Source: Thermoanaerobaculia bacterium (lineage in GTDB: Bacteria > Acidobacteriota > Thermoanaerobaculia > UBA5066). From it: a stretch of 64,000 nt of DNA. Every line of letters starts with the position of its first letter. Within the stretch, counting starts at the first letter, position 1. The position numbers and the translations under genes were made by a program. The stretch lies in NCBI GenBank assembly GCA_963719225.1, contig CAVRAY010000001.1, positions 1,056,001-1,120,000 on the forward strand. Reading direction: 5' to 3'. Shown piece by piece: positions 11,119 through 62,146 of this stretch. Below the pieces are notes generated by a model. The model saw only the letters and a list, made by a program, of their open reading frames with translations, was not told the DNA's origin and ran no database searches.

Positions 11119-12305
11119 CGGGCGGTTCCCTTCGCCCCGGCGTCTTTCGGTTCTGCGACGGGCGCACCGTCCGCGGGCGGCGCCGTGAGGCCGACGAGAA
11201 CCGTCTCGCCGCCGGAGAGGCCGGAGAGAATCTCGATCTTCCCGCCCTGCGAGGCGCCGGTTGTGACGATGCGGGTACGCGCCTTGCCTGCGTCGTCCTT
11301 CACGGCGACGAGGGTGACTCCGCCGCTCGCGAGAACGGCGCTCTCGGGAACGAGAACCGAGGAGCGGACGGCGGTCTCGAGCGTCGCGCGGCCCGTGAGG
11401 CCGGTCGCAGCGGGCGAGCCGGACAGCTCGAGCGTCACCGTGTAGGTGTGGGTGGCGGAGTCGGCGCCGGGCGACATCTCGACGACCGTGCCCGTCATGC
11501 CGGCGGCCACGCCGTCGATCCGGACGGGCAGCTTCTGCCCTGCCTTGAGGCCGGACGCGGCGACGGTCCCGGCCGGGACCTGCACGACGAGGCGGCGGCC
11601 CGTCGCGGATTCGATCGTGACGAGCGGGCGGCCCGGAGCGGCGAGGTCGCCGGCCTCGACGAGGCGAGAGGCCACGCGGCCGGCGAACGGCGCCGTGACG
11701 CGGGACTCCCGTGCGACGGAGGAGGCTGCGTCAACCGCTCCTTCGCCCTGCTGGACGGCGCCCTTCGCCTGCTCGTACTGCATCCGGTTCATGTCGAGCT
11801 CGAGCGGCGAGGCGGAACCCGAGGCCGCGAGGGCCTTGTAGCGTTCGTAGTTGCGCTCGGCGAGGGAGAGCGCCGCGCGAGCCTGCGCGAGCGCGCCCCT
11901 CGCCTGAGCCTCCTGGCCCTTCGCCGTCTGCGGGTCGATCTCCACGAGGACGTCGCCGGCGGCGACGGACTGGCCGACGCGCGCCCGCACCGCCACGACG
12001 TTCGCCGTGACGCGCGATGAGACGGCGGCGGAGCGGTCGGCCGTGACGGTGCCGTAGAGAGTCAGGCGGTCCGGCTGCGAGGCCCTCTCCACTGTTGTTG
12101 TGGCAGCGGATACGGGAGGAAGAGGAGGATTTTTCTTAGAAGGTGAATGCGGGGAGCCGCAGGCGCCCAGCGAAGCCGCGCCCGCGGTGACGAGGCCCAA
12201 TACCACCGTCAAAGGAACTCCGGGTCTTCCGGTCTTCACCTTCGAAGAAAATCCGAATCCGAATCCGATCTTGGTCCCGATCTTTCTCAATCCGATCACC
12301 CTCAC
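11115..12305 (-). CDS. RND periplasmic adaptor (membrane fusion) subunit
   Basis: GQSVAAGDVLVEID, VTAPFAGRV, VEAGDLAAPG motifs; start codon uncertain. Confidence 0.88.
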   Translation of the reverse strand: MRVIGLRKIGTKIGFGFGFSSKVKTGRPGVPLTVVLGLVTAGAASLGACGSPHSPSKKNPPLPPVSAATTTVERASQPDRLTLYGTVTADRSAAVSSRVTANVVAVRARVGQSVAAGDVLVEIDPQTAKGQEAQARGALAQARAALSLAERNYERYKALAASGSASPLELDMNRMQYEQAKGAVQQGEGAVDAASSVARESRVTAPFAGRVASRLVEAGDLAAPGRPLVTIESATGRRLVVQVPAGTVAASGLKAGQKLPVRIDGVAAGMTGTVVEMSPGADSATHTYTVTLELSGSPAATGLTGRATLETAVRSSVLVPESAVLASGGVTLVAVKDDAGKARTRIVTTGASQGGKIEILSGLSGGETVLVGLTAPPADGAPVAEPKDAGAKGTAR

Positions 12306-13681
12306 TCCGTTCCTCCGTTCAAGACACTCTCGGGGCGGCGTCCCGCCTTGACGGCGAGCTTCAGCGCCGCCGTGTGCGCATCGGCGCGGGTGACGAGCTC
12401 CCGCGTTTCCGCCTCGCGGCGGGCCGTCGTGACGTCCAGGAGATCGAGCGTCTTGACGACACCCGCCCGGAAACGGTCGTCCGTGATGCGCTCGGCCTCG
12501 CGCGCAGACTCGAGCGCCCTCTTCGCGGTCTCGTGCCGGGCCTCGGCGGTCCTCGCCTCCTCGAAGGCCTGCCGGACCTCGAGGCGCACGCCTTCCGTGA
12601 ACCGGGCGAGGTCTTCGCGGCCGGCCCGGGCGTCCTCGCGCGCCGCGATTGCGGCGGCTCGGTCCGCGCCCCCCTGAAACACGTTCCAGGTGGCGACCGC
12701 CATGATCGAGCCCGACGTGCCCGTCGAGCCGAACGGCTTGTCTCCGTAGAGCTCGCCCTTGGCGACGAGCGCGAGCTTCGGCCAGAAGGGCGCCCGCTTC
12801 ACCTTCTCCTCGAGCTGGCCCGCCGCGAGGAGCTTCTTCGCCGAGCCGAGGTCGGGGCGTTCGGCGGCGGTCGCGAGCCAGCCGTCGACCGGCGTCGCGA
12901 CGGGGCGCGGGTCGGGCAGCGGGGCCAGGTCCCACGAGGACCCGCCTGCGGCGCCGAGCCGGAACGCGAGGTTCGCGTTCGCGACCCGCACGCGGCCGTC
13001 GGCCTCGGTCACGAGGTCGTCCATCCGGGCGAGCTCGACCTCGGCCCTCAGGAGCTCCGACCGGACGAGCATGCCCTGCGTGACGAAGTCGCCGGCGAGC
13101 TTGACGTGCGCCGCGACCGTGTCGCGCGACTTGTGGAGGAGCGCCGCGTGCTCCTCGGCCTGTGCGACCATAACGTACGCCTCGGCGGCCGAAAGGGCTG
13201 CGTTGTCGGCCACCCACGCGGACGTGCCGGAGGCGGCCCCGGCCGCGAGGCGGGCCTGGTCGATACGCCCCGAGAGCTCGCCGCCCGTGAAGAGGGGGAA
13301 GACGATCTCGGCGCGCGTGATGCCGGTGTTCAGGGGCGCCGCGTCGTTCGGGTCGCTCGCGACGAACTCCGGGAACGAGAACGTGCCCTGGTTGAGCTTC
13401 AGGGCGAACGCCTCGGCCGGGTTGTTCGTGCGCATGAAGAGCGCCGTCAGGTTGAGCGACGGGAGGCGCATGGCCTTCGCCTGGGAGGCCCTGGCCTCGG
13501 CGGCACCCTGGCGGGCCTGTGCAGCCGTCACTTCCCGGGCGCTTTCCCGAGCCTTTTGCATCGCGCTCGCCAGAGTGAGAGGCGAAGGGGCCGGCTCGGC
13601 GGCCCGGACGGACCCCGCCAGGGCCCACGCGAGAAAGAGGAGAACGAGGGGGTTGCGTTTTTCCTTCACGGCTGCTACCAT
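12302..13681 (-). CDS. TolC family outer membrane protein
   Basis: Signal peptide, PSLNL, PLFTGG, RFRAG..TLDLL; start may be GTG at 13669. Confidence 0.88.
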   Translation of the reverse strand: MVAAVKEKRNPLVLLFLAWALAGSVRAAEPAPSPLTLASAMQKARESAREVTAAQARQGAAEARASQAKAMRLPSLNLTALFMRTNNPAEAFALKLNQGTFSFPEFVASDPNDAAPLNTGITRAEIVFPLFTGGELSGRIDQARLAAGAASGTSAWVADNAALSAAEAYVMVAQAEEHAALLHKSRDTVAAHVKLAGDFVTQGMLVRSELLRAEVELARMDDLVTEADGRVRVANANLAFRLGAAGGSSWDLAPLPDPRPVATPVDGWLATAAERPDLGSAKKLLAAGQLEEKVKRAPFWPKLALVAKGELYGDKPFGSTGTSGSIMAVATWNVFQGGADRAAAIAAREDARAGREDLARFTEGVRLEVRQAFEEARTAEARHETAKRALESAREAERITDDRFRAGVVKTLDLLDVTTARREAETRELVTRADAHTAALKLAVKAGRRPESVLNGGTE

Positions 13682-13693
13682 ATAGCTATATGG
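13678..13693. promoter_or_regulatory. Perfect 16-bp palindrome, putative ArsR operator
   Basis: CCATATAGCTATATGG between divergent tolC and DUF2892 genes. Confidence 0.55.
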
Positions 13694-13740
13694 TTATAGA
13701 AGTCAATGGCCCCGTTACGGTCGATCCAAAGGAGACACCG

Positions 13741-60117: not shown

Positions 60118-60906
60118 ATGAATCAGATCGTCTGCATCGCCTACGTCCCCGACACGGAAACCAGGATCCGCATCGCCCCGGGCGGCGTCTCGATCGACGA
60201 AGCCGACGTGAAGTGGATCGTGTCCCCCTACGACGAGTACGCGCTCGAGGGCGCGCTCAAGACGAAGGAAGCGAAAGGCGGGACCGTCACGGCCCTGACG
60301 TTCGGCCCCGCGCGCGCCGACACGGGCCTGCGCGAGAGCCTCGCCCGCGGCGCCGACGACGCGATCCGCATCGCGTCCGAGGGCCTCGGCGACGTGGATT
60401 CGCTCGGCGTGGCGCGCCTCCTCGCCGGCGTCATCGAGACCCTGCCCTACGACGTCGTGTGGATGGGCAACAAGGGCGTCGGCACGGACGCGCAGCTCCT
60501 CGTGCCCATGCTCGCCGAGCTCCTCGACCTGCCGCACGTGAATCTCGTGACGCAGCTCGAGTGGAAGGACGGCACGGTCGTCGCGCACCGCGAGATCGAG
60601 GGCGCGCAGGAAGTCGTCGAGATGCCGCTTCCCGGCATCATCGGTGCCACGAAGGGGCTGAACGAGCCGCGCTACGCGTCGCTGAAGGGGATCATGGCCG
60701 CGAAGAAGAAGGCGATCGCCGTGAAGACGCCCGCCGACGCCGGCGTCGATCCGGCGTCGATCTCCGGAGACGCCGTGCACGTGCGCTGGACGAAGCTCGA
60801 GCTGCCGCCCCCGCGGCAGGCCGTGAAGCTCGTCCCGGCGGATGACCCGGCGAAGGCCGCGACGGAGCTGCTGCGGCTGCTGCGGGAAGAGGCGAAGGTC
60901 CTTTGA
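60118..60906 (+). CDS. etfB: Electron transfer flavoprotein beta subunit
   Basis: [40 protein letters not shown]. Confidence 0.93.
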
Positions 60907-60962
60907 GTAAGAAGGAAAAGAGAAAGAGAAGATTTTCTTAGAAGGTAAGAGGGAAAGATCGC

Positions 60963-61937
60963 ATGTCGAACGTCCTCGTTTTCATCGAGCAGCGGGACGG
61001 CAAGCTGCGGAAGTCCTCGCTGGAGGCCTTGAGTCTCGGTCATTCACTTTCTAAGAAAAGCGGCGGTGCACTTGCCGCTGTGATTGCCGGATCCGGCATC
61101 GGGTCTTTGGCCTCAGAGCTCGCTGCGTACGGCGCCGCGAAGGTGTTCGTCGCCGACAAGCCGGAGCTCGCGTTGTTCTCGTCCGAGGGCTACACCGCGG
61201 CCCTCGATGCCGCGGCGACGGCCTTCAAGCCGTCCATCGTCCTCGTCTCGGCCACCGCCATGGGTCGCGACGTCGCCCCGCGCTTCGCCGCGCGCCGCGG
61301 CGTCTCGGTGCTGTCGGACGTGATGACGCTCGACGTCGAGGGCGGCCGCCTCGCGGGCGAACGGCCGGTCTATTCGGGAAAGGCGCGCGTGCGCGTCACG
61401 CCAGCGGCGAACGCCGAGATCCAGGTCGCGACGCCGCGCCCGAACGTGTTTCCGGCGTCGAAGAGCCCGGGCGCGGGCGAGGTCGTGAACCTCGACCTTC
61501 CGGCTCTGAAAATCCGCGCGAAGGTCGTGAAGGTGGAGGCGGCCGAGGCCGGCGAGATCGACGTGGCCGAGGCGGACAAGATCGTCAGCGGGGGTCGCGG
61601 CATCAAGGGGCCCGAGAACTGGCCCATCCTGCGGGCGCTGTGCCACGAGCTGGGCGCCGCGCTGGGCGCCTCGCGTGCCGCGGTGGATGCCGGCTGGATC
61701 GGGCACGAGCACCAGGTGGGGCAGACCGGGAAAGTCGTCTCGCCGTCGCTCTACATCGCGTGCGGCGTCTCCGGCGCGATCCAGCATCTCGCGGGGATGG
61801 GCTCGTCGAAGGTCATCGTGGCCATCAACAAGGACCCCGAGGCGCCGATCTTCAAGGTCGCCACGTACGGCATCGTGGGCGACCTCTTCCAGATCGTGCC
61901 TGCGATGACGGAAGCGGCGAAAAAGCTGAAGGCCTAG
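60963..61937 (+). CDS. etfA: Electron transfer flavoprotein alpha subunit
   Basis: [44 protein letters not shown]. Confidence 0.95.
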
Positions 61938-62146
61938 CGGCCGCGCTGTCCCCTGACCGCCTCCTACCGCGAACGCTCGGGCCCCTATTTCCGATGCCCT
62001 CTTGCCCTCGCTCTCGAGCTCCGCGCGCGGCGATCTTCTCTGAGGCTTCGGCCGTCGGACGCGCGTCGCTCGACGTCGCGCACGAAGGCAGTCAGGCGCC
62101 TTCGCGCCGCTGCCTCTTCACCTTCTAAGAATTCTCTTCTTGATCC

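What the first reader, a model, noticed from the sequence alone, without database searches (positions are those of the whole stretch)
12131..62133. Unexplained dispersed 17-bp motif TTTTCTTHGAAGGTGAA, often as inverted pairs inside AT-rich patches of genes
Seen, close matches: 12131(+), 12235(-), 22575(+), 22758(-), 38706(-), 56868(+), 60933(+), 61043(-), 62117(-). Looser matches: 21733(+), 21814(-), 38542(+), 38611(-). The core TTCTWAGAA alone occurs at least 7 times; my rough estimate for ~68% GC and independent bases is about 0.04 expected. Copies cluster every 5-20 kb, usually as + then - pairs 70-180 bp apart. They lie inside unrelated CDSs (MFP, yyaL, ACT subunit, etfA) where local codon usage turns AT-rich, and one lies inside IS-B. 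Inference: a DNA-level signal such as a nucleoid-organising or looping site (matS/NBS-like) or a DNA-uptake-like sequence. I know of no description of it.
Basis: partly seen in the sequence, partly recalled or inferred. Interest (0 to 1): 0.8.

Follow-up and report, generated by a model that had tools for sequence, protein, structure and literature searches.

The report
Face-to-face DNA signal pairs inside genes
An uncultured group of Acidobacteriota carries hundreds of copies of a directional DNA word that nearly always comes as two copies facing each other about 66-250 bases apart, kept at the same places inside ordinary genes across species and densest near the replication terminus, and it is likely the anchor for a still unidentified protein that would fold the chromosome into small loops.

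Summary
The motif is real and larger than reported. A matrix finds 816 copies in the genome, in about 450 loci. Each copy is a directional arm of about 45 bp: GAAGA-rich flank, WTTTCTTHGAADG core, purine tail.

The unit is a facing pair. 536 of 816 arms have a strong partner 40-300 bp inward and 12 have one outward. Spacing rises sharply at 66 bp and peaks at 73-75 bp.

Arms use all six frames and exceed codon-preserving shuffles 7-16-fold. They stay at the same codons across one genus and, more weakly, its sister genus. Other searched Acidobacteriota show background counts.

The arms do not covary, spacers are unrelated and not palindromic, and there is no strand, promoter or replichore bias. 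Density is 2.2-fold higher within 1 Mb of dif. This argues against hairpins, MITE/REP elements, uptake sequences, KOPS and matS.

Best reading (about 50%): a lineage-specific protein binds two facing arms and closes a small loop, organising the chromosome. No reader was found: eight candidate families did not track the motif. Helical phasing was not detected. Five literature searches found no description. Other windows of this scan flagged what is probably the same family.

The parts
12131..12147 (+). Arm of pair 1 (core register), in the N-terminal signal region of the RND membrane-fusion gene
   Evidence: (33 bits)
12235..12251 (-). Facing arm of pair 1, 106 bp; the pair is kept in G003 with a spacer 36 bp shorter, in frame
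   Evidence: (31 bits)
21733..21749 (+). Arm of pair 2, yyaL (DUF255) codon about 349
   Evidence: 23 bits
21815..21831 (-). Facing arm of pair 2, 84 bp; pair present in 20 of 20 g1 and 4 of 5 g11 orthologs
   Evidence: 27 bits
22575..22591 (+). Arm of pair 3, yyaL linker, codon about 630
   Evidence: 30 bits
22758..22774 (-). Facing arm of pair 3, 185 bp (185-242 in orthologs)
   Evidence: 33 bits
34774..34790 (+). Weak unpaired arm, intergenic; lost in G003
   Evidence: 18 bits
38542..38558 (+). Arm of pair 4, in the ACT-domain (AHAS small subunit-like) gene
   Evidence: 21 bits
38611..38627 (-). Core-only inner copy between the arms of pair 4; flanks atypical
   Evidence: core 38617-38625; under 10 bits
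38706..38722 (-). Facing arm of pair 4, 166 bp, at the 3' end of the ACT gene
   Evidence: 26 bits
50550..50566 (-). Weak unpaired arm in the IS-rich island
   Evidence: 18 bits
56868..56884 (+). Unpaired arm carried by a 5-copy IS110-family element
60915..60955 (+). Full arm of pair 5 in the etfB-etfA gap: GAAGA-rich outer flank, core 60933-60949, purine tail overlapping the likely ribosome-binding site
   Evidence: 34 bits
61043..61059 (-). Facing arm of pair 5, 112 bp, written over etfA codons about 26-32 without a length change
   Evidence: 25 bits
62117..62133 (-). Strong unpaired arm downstream of etfA, intergenic
   Evidence: 33 bits
20694..22991 (+). Host gene yyaL (DUF255 thioredoxin-domain protein), two pairs
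60963..61937 (+). Host gene etfA

Best explanation
The motif is one arm of a facing pair of directional DNA sites kept by selection at about 450 places in the genome, and it is likely read in double-stranded DNA by a still unidentified lineage-specific protein that would join two facing arms and close a 66-250 bp loop. Shown: the directional arm, the inward-facing pairing with a sharp lower edge and a 73-75 bp mode, purifying selection on the DNA letters, origin on top of existing genes at tolerant positions, no base-pairing signal, and enrichment around dif. Inferred: a protein reads each arm (sharp TTC/GAA core, graded GAAGA flank), and the pairing reflects contact between two bound complexes. 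Speculative: the loops pin supercoil tips about every 7 kb and compact the terminus half.
For: Orientation: 331 +- against 24 -+ site pairs within 600 bp; 536 of 816 arms have an inward partner and 12 an outward one. Spacing: edge at 66, mode 73-75, matching the about 73-bp plectoneme tip loop modelled in PMC6301789 (passages). All six frames, sense 267 and antisense 268. No replichore bias. Lowest intergenic density in divergent gaps. A/T third positions in the core kept 36 of 44 times against 1962 of 5853 background in G003. Sites fixed at orthologous yyaL codons at 64-86% protein identity while the spacer changes by indels. At etfB-etfA the pair is built in two different ways. Arms match the family consensus, not their partner. 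25.3 against 11.4 sites per 100 kb near and away from dif, at equal GC, with shuffled-matrix ratios of 0.45-1.17.
Against: No reader found: eight candidate families do not track the motif. No 10.5-bp phasing of spacings (p 0.18-0.35, n 114-226), which short protein-closed loops usually show (recalled). Extra arms in larger clusters are not symmetric about one apex (positions). Loci are not evenly spaced (CV 1.16). 178 of 816 arms have no partner even at 8 bits. The terminus bias is only partly reproduced in G019. The match to 73 bp may be coincidence. Copy number differs widely within g11 (6-72).
Confidence: 0.5

Rival explanations
1. Uptake- or recombination-bias signal (DUS/USS-like) accumulated by molecular drive, with a machine that prefers fragments carrying two facing marks.
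For: Like uptake sequences (PMC2817400, abstract), the sites use all frames, favour poorly conserved residues and are missing from several long stretches, up to 150 kb, some of which look mobile. ComEC is present in 44 of 46 family genomes.
Against: ComEC is also in 14 of 14 motif-negative g13 genomes. A partner at 66-250 bp and a terminus gradient are not uptake-sequence features (recalled). Synonymous divergence inside pairs is not raised (0.30 against 0.31).
Confidence: 0.14
2. Arms are written by an unknown enzyme or are relics of a domesticated MITE/REP-like element; pairs are footprints of that process and are now partly conserved.
For: Intergenic pairs look like terminal inverted repeats around GC-rich filler. 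Whole 78-80 bp pairs stand in the etfB-etfA gap of 4 of 18 g1 genomes. A 27-nt in-frame, consensus-like arm differs between G000 and G003 in one gene. The outer flank is a variable run of GAAGA.
Against: Spacers share no family homology apart from paralogous genes. In yyaL pair 2 and in etfA the spacer is ancestral gene sequence with no insertion. Partner arms are no more alike than random arms. No Y1/RAYT transposase in G000 or G019.
Confidence: 0.14
3. The arms pair with each other in single-stranded DNA or mRNA, forming long hairpins read by a nuclease or helicase.
For: Facing arms are complementary at consensus level. Helical phasing is not needed and none was found. Own-partner duplexes are slightly more stable than swapped ones (up to 1.8 sd in intergenic pairs).
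Against: No excess of Watson-Crick matches between partners in any arm segment and no clear G-U over A-C bias on the sense strand, 228 pairs. Spacers are not self-complementary, mean z -0.4 to 0.3 by class, 152 pairs. A minimum near 66 bp is not expected for a hairpin. No Rfam match in the window.
Confidence: 0.1
4. Polar stop or loading sites for a machine that moves along DNA (SMC, FtsK, or the second ParAB encoded next to dif); a facing pair would catch it from either side.
For: Needs orientation but no phasing; terminus bias; two pairs flank dif in G000, and 17 of 20 g1 loci have an arm within about 420 bp downstream of parB2.
Against: ParB2 occurs in 43 of 46 family genomes, including motif-negative genera, with a nearly identical recognition helix. 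A different conserved inverted repeat sits next to dif across g1, g11 and g13. About 450 loci is many for an unloading site.
Confidence: 0.1

Closest known systems
DNA uptake sequences (Neisseriaceae DUS, Pasteurellaceae USS)
   Same: Hundreds of copies of a non-palindromic core with weaker flanks, both strands, inside genes, at poorly conserved residues, absent from recently gained genes (PMC2817400, abstract seen); clade-restricted.
   Different: Here the unit is a facing pair with a free 40-230 bp filler, most copies are in coding sequence, and density rises towards dif. No link to competence was found.
matS-MatP (Ter macrodomain), NBS-Noc, SBS-SlmA, parS-ParB
   Same: Chromosome-position-biased sites inside genes, no regulatory placement; a TTC...GAA-type core recalls ParB/Noc sites (recalled; PMC7383237 seen as a search listing only).
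   Different: Those are palindromes in about 1-70 copies (recalled) with no local partner. This motif is asymmetric, about 800 copies, paired, and only 2.2-fold biased. MatP was not found.
REP/BIME/REPIN with RAYT; MITEs and Rickettsia palindromic elements
   Same: Short inverted arms 70-250 bp apart, sometimes in frame inside genes (RPE: PMC10969869, passages).
   Different: No shared internal sequence, no arm-to-arm identity, no insertion against orthologs at the tested CDS pairs, and no RAYT in 2 of 2 g1 genomes.
HIP1 of cyanobacteria, Chi, KOPS
   Same: Iterated genome-wide words under selection inside genes (recalled).
   Different: HIP1 is a short palindrome. Chi and KOPS are replichore-skewed, whereas this motif is not (408 and 408 by replichore, strands balanced).
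Convergent CTCF sites (eukaryotes)
   Same: Directional sites whose facing orientation marks loop anchors (recalled); a functional analogy only.
   Different: Scale is 100 bp rather than 100 kb; no homology is claimed.

Membership tests
DNA uptake sequences | Abundant non-palindromic core on both strands, in all reading frames | tested here: met
DNA uptake sequences | Mostly single copies or close terminator pairs, spread evenly round the chromosome (recalled) | tested here: not met
   638 of 816 have an inward partner 40-300 bp away; 2.2-fold bias to dif
DNA uptake sequences | Biases DNA uptake by a competence receptor | not testable with these tools
   ComEC is family-wide and does not discriminate
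matS-MatP | Palindromic site confined to the Ter macrodomain | tested here: not met
   asymmetric matrix; 267 sites outside dif +/-1 Mb
matS-MatP | matP gene | tested here: not met
   PF06303 in 0 of 5 genomes, E. coli control positive
ParB/Noc sites | Palindromic 14-16 bp site | tested here: not met
   the canonical parS-type site occurs once, near dnaA
ParB/Noc sites | Cognate ParB-family protein that co-occurs with the site | tested here: inconclusive
   ParB2 is present but also in motif-negative genera; one helix residue differs between g1/g11 and g13/g14, which also follows descent
REP/REPIN-RAYT | Extragenic palindromic units with conserved spacers | tested here: not met
   at least 535 of 816 in CDS; spacers unrelated
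REP/REPIN-RAYT | Y1 HUH transposase (RAYT) | tested here: not met
   PF01797 in 0 of 2 g1 genomes; present in G174 and two g13 genomes
MITE / RPE | Copies homologous over their length and inserted relative to empty orthologous sites | tested here: not met
   exceptions: four whole intergenic pairs and one 27-nt arm indel
MITE / RPE | Target-site duplication | not tested
   outer boundaries of the arms are graded
Chi/KOPS | Strand skew by replichore | tested here: not met
   213/195 and 202/206
Structured RNA or ssDNA hairpin family | Compensatory pairing between arms or through the spacer | tested here: not met
Invertible elements (invertons) | Spacer found in both orientations | tested here: inconclusive
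   spacer co-linear in the yyaL and etfA orthologs; no strand-change joints in contigs of 4 runs, with thin cover

The most novel reading that the evidence does not exclude
A bacterial lineage has evolved a sequence-encoded chromatin code: about 450 facing site pairs, written into housekeeping genes at the cost of amino-acid changes, position micro-loops at supercoil tips across the terminus half of the chromosome through a new DNA-bridging protein. It would be a 100-bp-scale bacterial counterpart of convergent loop anchors.
Probability: 0.3. Interest if true: 0.9.

Novelty: categorically new. Interest (0 to 1): 0.72.

Why it matters
To my knowledge (recalled; five searches found no counter-example), no bacterial genome-wide signal is known whose unit is two facing, non-pairing sites with a free spacer and a fixed minimum distance. 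If it anchors loops, it maps chromosome folding positions straight from sequence and makes a long-standing question testable: whether supercoil domains are placed by sequence. It also shows a second code strong enough to reshape protein sequences: 77 of 280 TTA codons lie within 12 nt of a site centre. The word is also a clean marker for this clade.

Tried and rejected
Chance or codon bias: rejected.

Hairpin pairing: rejected on covariation, wobble bias and spacer symmetry. Four intergenic etf spacers looked palindromic by eye, but the genome-wide test showed no such trend.

Hypermutation inside pairs: amino-acid divergence from G003 is 0.34 inside against 0.13 outside (11 of 12 genes, two of which are duplicates), but four-fold sites are equal. 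The same yyaL stretches are also more variable in motif-negative g13. So pairs settle in tolerant regions.

The 91-bp spacing peak comes from paralogous kinase-like genes (name inferred); it was dropped from the pairing tests. 14 of the 816 sites are carried by IS copies.

Candidate readers that do not track the motif: topoisomerase IB (1 of 46); ParB2 (43 of 46); a basic Pfam-less 164-aa protein (42 of 46, including 14 of 14 g13; model pLDDT 69, two three-helix bundles; no Foldseek hit at E <= 0.001 and best VIA Z 6.5); histone fold (0 of 5); MatP (0 of 5); Lsr2 (0 of 5); H-NS (1 of 5); RAYT. A full gene-content subtraction was not possible within the fetch limits.

A de novo search for other paired words in 40-200 kb slices of eight motif-negative genomes gave nothing comparable apart from a small AAATCCGAA set in G028. 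That test is weak: its exact inverted-word part did not recover the motif in the G000 or G003 controls; only the 9-mer count did, and only in G000.

Viral contigs: 0 and 2 hits, both AT-rich and isolated. Sequencing runs: no RNA holder listed; contigs of four runs cover the stretch only in pieces.

Literature searches without a description. The library lacks most subscription papers, and no supplements were read.
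Full report
Observation. The window is G000:C1:1056001-1120000 of a 4.75-Mb, 68% GC assembly. Of the 80 listed, 79 are titled Thermoanaerobaculia or Acidobacteria/Acidobacteriota and one is an AT-rich Patescibacteria contig with weak scores. I take the class from these titles.

Anatomy. An iterated matrix gives 816 sites at 18 bits or more; the reversed matrix gives 106 (570 against 19 at 24 bits). 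The core is W-T-T-T-C-T-T-H-G-A-A-D-G with near-invariant C, G and A. It is followed by a purine tail of about 12 bp and preceded by a purine-rich flank that fades over 30-40 bp, whose commonest pentamer is GAAGA. The arm is directional.

The pair is the unit. Within 600 bp there are 331 plus-then-minus site pairs, 24 minus-then-plus, 69 plus-plus and 56 minus-minus; sites group into 454 loci. 536 of 816 arms have a partner of 18 bits or more 40-300 bp on their inner side and 12 on the outer side (638 against 28 at 8 bits). Spacings rise sharply at 66 bp, peak at 73-75 and tail to about 250. 45 of the 119 scan loci (range limited to 66-96) fall at 73-75. A 10.5-bp period was not detected (p 0.18-0.35). 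A peak at 91 comes from paralogous genes.

It is a DNA-level signal under selection. My own gene caller (90% coding) places 535 sites in CDS, 253 between genes and 28 on boundaries. The intergenic count is an upper bound, because the caller truncates N-termini, as for the MFP gene. All six frames are used, sense and antisense equally, and CDS hits number 539 against 63-79 and 34-39 in two synonymous-shuffle nulls. Against G003 (83% DNA identity), 24 of 28 alignable sites keep 12 bits or more. A/T third positions in the core are kept 36 of 44 times against 1962 of 5853 elsewhere. In yyaL, window pair 2 is present at the same codons in 20 of 20 g1 and 4 of 5 g11 genomes, and pair 3 in 16 of 20 and 4 of 5, with spacing from 185 to 242 bp; 0 of 5 g13/g82 orthologs have any site (the 30 best of 46 genomes). 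At etfB-etfA, 14 of 18 g1 loci have a facing pair: ten pair an intergenic arm with one written over etfA codons 26-32, and four hold a whole 78-80 bp pair in the gap. Three have one arm, G003 has none, and 0 of 12 loci from other genera have a pair. So arms arise mostly on top of existing sequence. One in-frame 27-nt arm indel shows that short insertions or deletions also occur.

Range. The exact core TTTCTTHGAADG occurs 124-450 times in 20 of 20 g1 genomes, 6-72 times in six g11 genomes and 0-5 times in 20 genomes of seven other genera of the family. In 201 genomes of the class, none outside g1 and G174 exceeds 7 hits (includes unpublished G025 and G196 as negatives). The paired pattern is in 4 of 4 g1 genomes (9-28 pairs) and once in 1 of 297 other genomes of the phylum.

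What it is not. Partner arms are no more alike than random arms at any position beyond small fluctuations. In 228 pairs there is no excess of Watson-Crick matches and no clear G-U bias on the sense strand; own-partner duplexes are at most 1.8 sd more stable than swapped ones. Spacers are not self-complementary (152 pairs) and form no family. Rfam has no match in the window. There is no replichore skew. Intergenic density is lowest in divergent gaps (0.47 per kb against 0.77 and 0.76), which argues against an ordinary operator. Higher amino-acid divergence inside pairs is not matched at synonymous sites and is present in motif-negative relatives.

Chromosome position. dnaA lies at C2:326 kb with one parS-type site beside it. 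A dif-type site lies at C1:2,037,574, near the GC-skew maximum, downstream of a second parAB operon in 30 of 30 loci (consensus patterns recalled). Leaving out IS-borne sites and C2 beyond 470 kb (600-800 kb duplicates C2 0-230 kb), density is 25.3 per 100 kb within 1 Mb of dif and 11.4 elsewhere (286 against 156 loci, p 3.5e-15). GC is equal and shuffled matrices give ratios of 0.45-1.17. The bias holds in each codon-score quartile. By hand count, 48 of 74 forward hits of G235 fall in the 1.5 Mb around its dif, and 3 of 72 hits of G174 fall in the 770 kb around dnaA. G019 fits only partly: its dnaA and dif are 0.73 Mb apart and the dense stretch starts 0.15 Mb from dnaA. These genomes share inherited sites and are not independent. 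A replication-timing mutation bias is not excluded.

Mechanism. A sharp core with graded flanks, convergence on a family consensus rather than on the partner, and indifference to transcription point to a protein that reads duplex DNA (inference). A strict facing geometry with a minimum distance and arbitrary filler points to contact between two bound complexes (inference). The 73-75 bp mode equals the plectoneme tip-loop size modelled in PMC6301789 (passages read), which suggests loops at supercoil tips (speculation). I give this 0.5. The absence of phasing, the asymmetric larger clusters and the missing reader count against it. Rivals are an uptake-like drive, an unknown writer or domesticated element, polar stops for a moving machine, and single-strand hairpins.

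Reader search. None of eight candidate families follows the motif. Two remain leads only. One is a basic 164-aa protein at C1:3836045-3836539 with two predicted three-helix bundles, an AT-hook-like RGRP stretch (recalled label) and a conserved C-terminal helix. It has no Pfam match, and its fold matches to transposase and CENP-B-type DNA-binding domains are below significance. The other is the dif-linked ParB2. Both also occur in motif-negative genera.

Prior description. Searches for the core word and for the taxon with motif terms found nothing relevant (listings only). I saw the abstract of PMC2817400, passages of PMC10969869 and PMC6301789, and listings only for PMC7383237 and PMC12460168. 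Statements on matS, NBS, HIP1, Chi, KOPS, REP and CTCF are recalled. Five earlier notes of this scan describe facing pairs in other genomes. One names the same core; they are not independent support. My tests do not bear out a hairpin reading or a class-wide range for this exact motif.

Verdict. The feature is real, strongly selected and fails the defining tests of every family considered, so I rate it categorically new as an architecture, with function inferred. Interest 0.72.

Noticed in passing
G000 C1:2037574-2039524 (L293, L294-L323): A second parAB operon lies directly upstream of dif in 30 of 30 family loci examined, with a conserved short inverted repeat about 15 bp from the dif arm in g1, g11 and g13; possibly a terminus partition module and its site.
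   Followed up: partly
G000 C1:3836045-3836539 (L204:6048-6539, -): Family-wide basic protein with no Pfam match: two predicted three-helix bundles, an RGRP-type linker and a conserved C-terminal helix; looks like an undescribed nucleoid protein; extra matches in several genomes.
   Followed up: partly
G000 C2:600000-800000: Duplicates C2 0-230 kb in inverted order with diverged proteins (blast cut-off 65% identity); probably a chimeric or contaminating stretch (contamination 6.2%).
   Followed up: partly
window 55420-56940 and G000 C1:766328-767600: Two unrelated IS elements (IS110 family, 5 copies; an IS5-like one, name inferred, 9 copies) each carry one unpaired arm in the non-coding 3' end.
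   Followed up: partly
window 46500-60000: Lower-GC island with three IS110-family transposases, toxin-antitoxin-like small genes and an integron-type tyrosine recombinase (59037-59990); G003 L153-L163 holds repeated attC-like words.
   Followed up: no
L189-L193 (G028, family f3): A different word, AAATCCGAA, occurs 10 times in 100 kb, with a few facing inverted copies; AATCCG repeats also flank some arms in G000 (window 12251-12275). Possibly a separate paired signal.
   Followed up: no
G000 C1:2295000-2320000: Tandem array of about nine paralogous Ser/Thr-kinase-like genes (name inferred), each with the same 91-bp pair.
   Followed up: partly
G000 C1:1717050-1717910: Peroxiredoxin-like protein (name inferred) with a long Pro/Ala and Lys/Ala/Arg histone-H1-like tail.
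   Followed up: no
G000 C1:2680000-2730000: The main ribosomal-protein cluster lies 0.65 Mb from dif and far from dnaA, which is unusual; two pairs lie inside it.
   Followed up: no
G082, G221 (genus g11): Near-background motif counts (7 and 6), yet G082 keeps weak arms at the orthologous yyaL positions; possible loss of the system in progress.
   Followed up: partly
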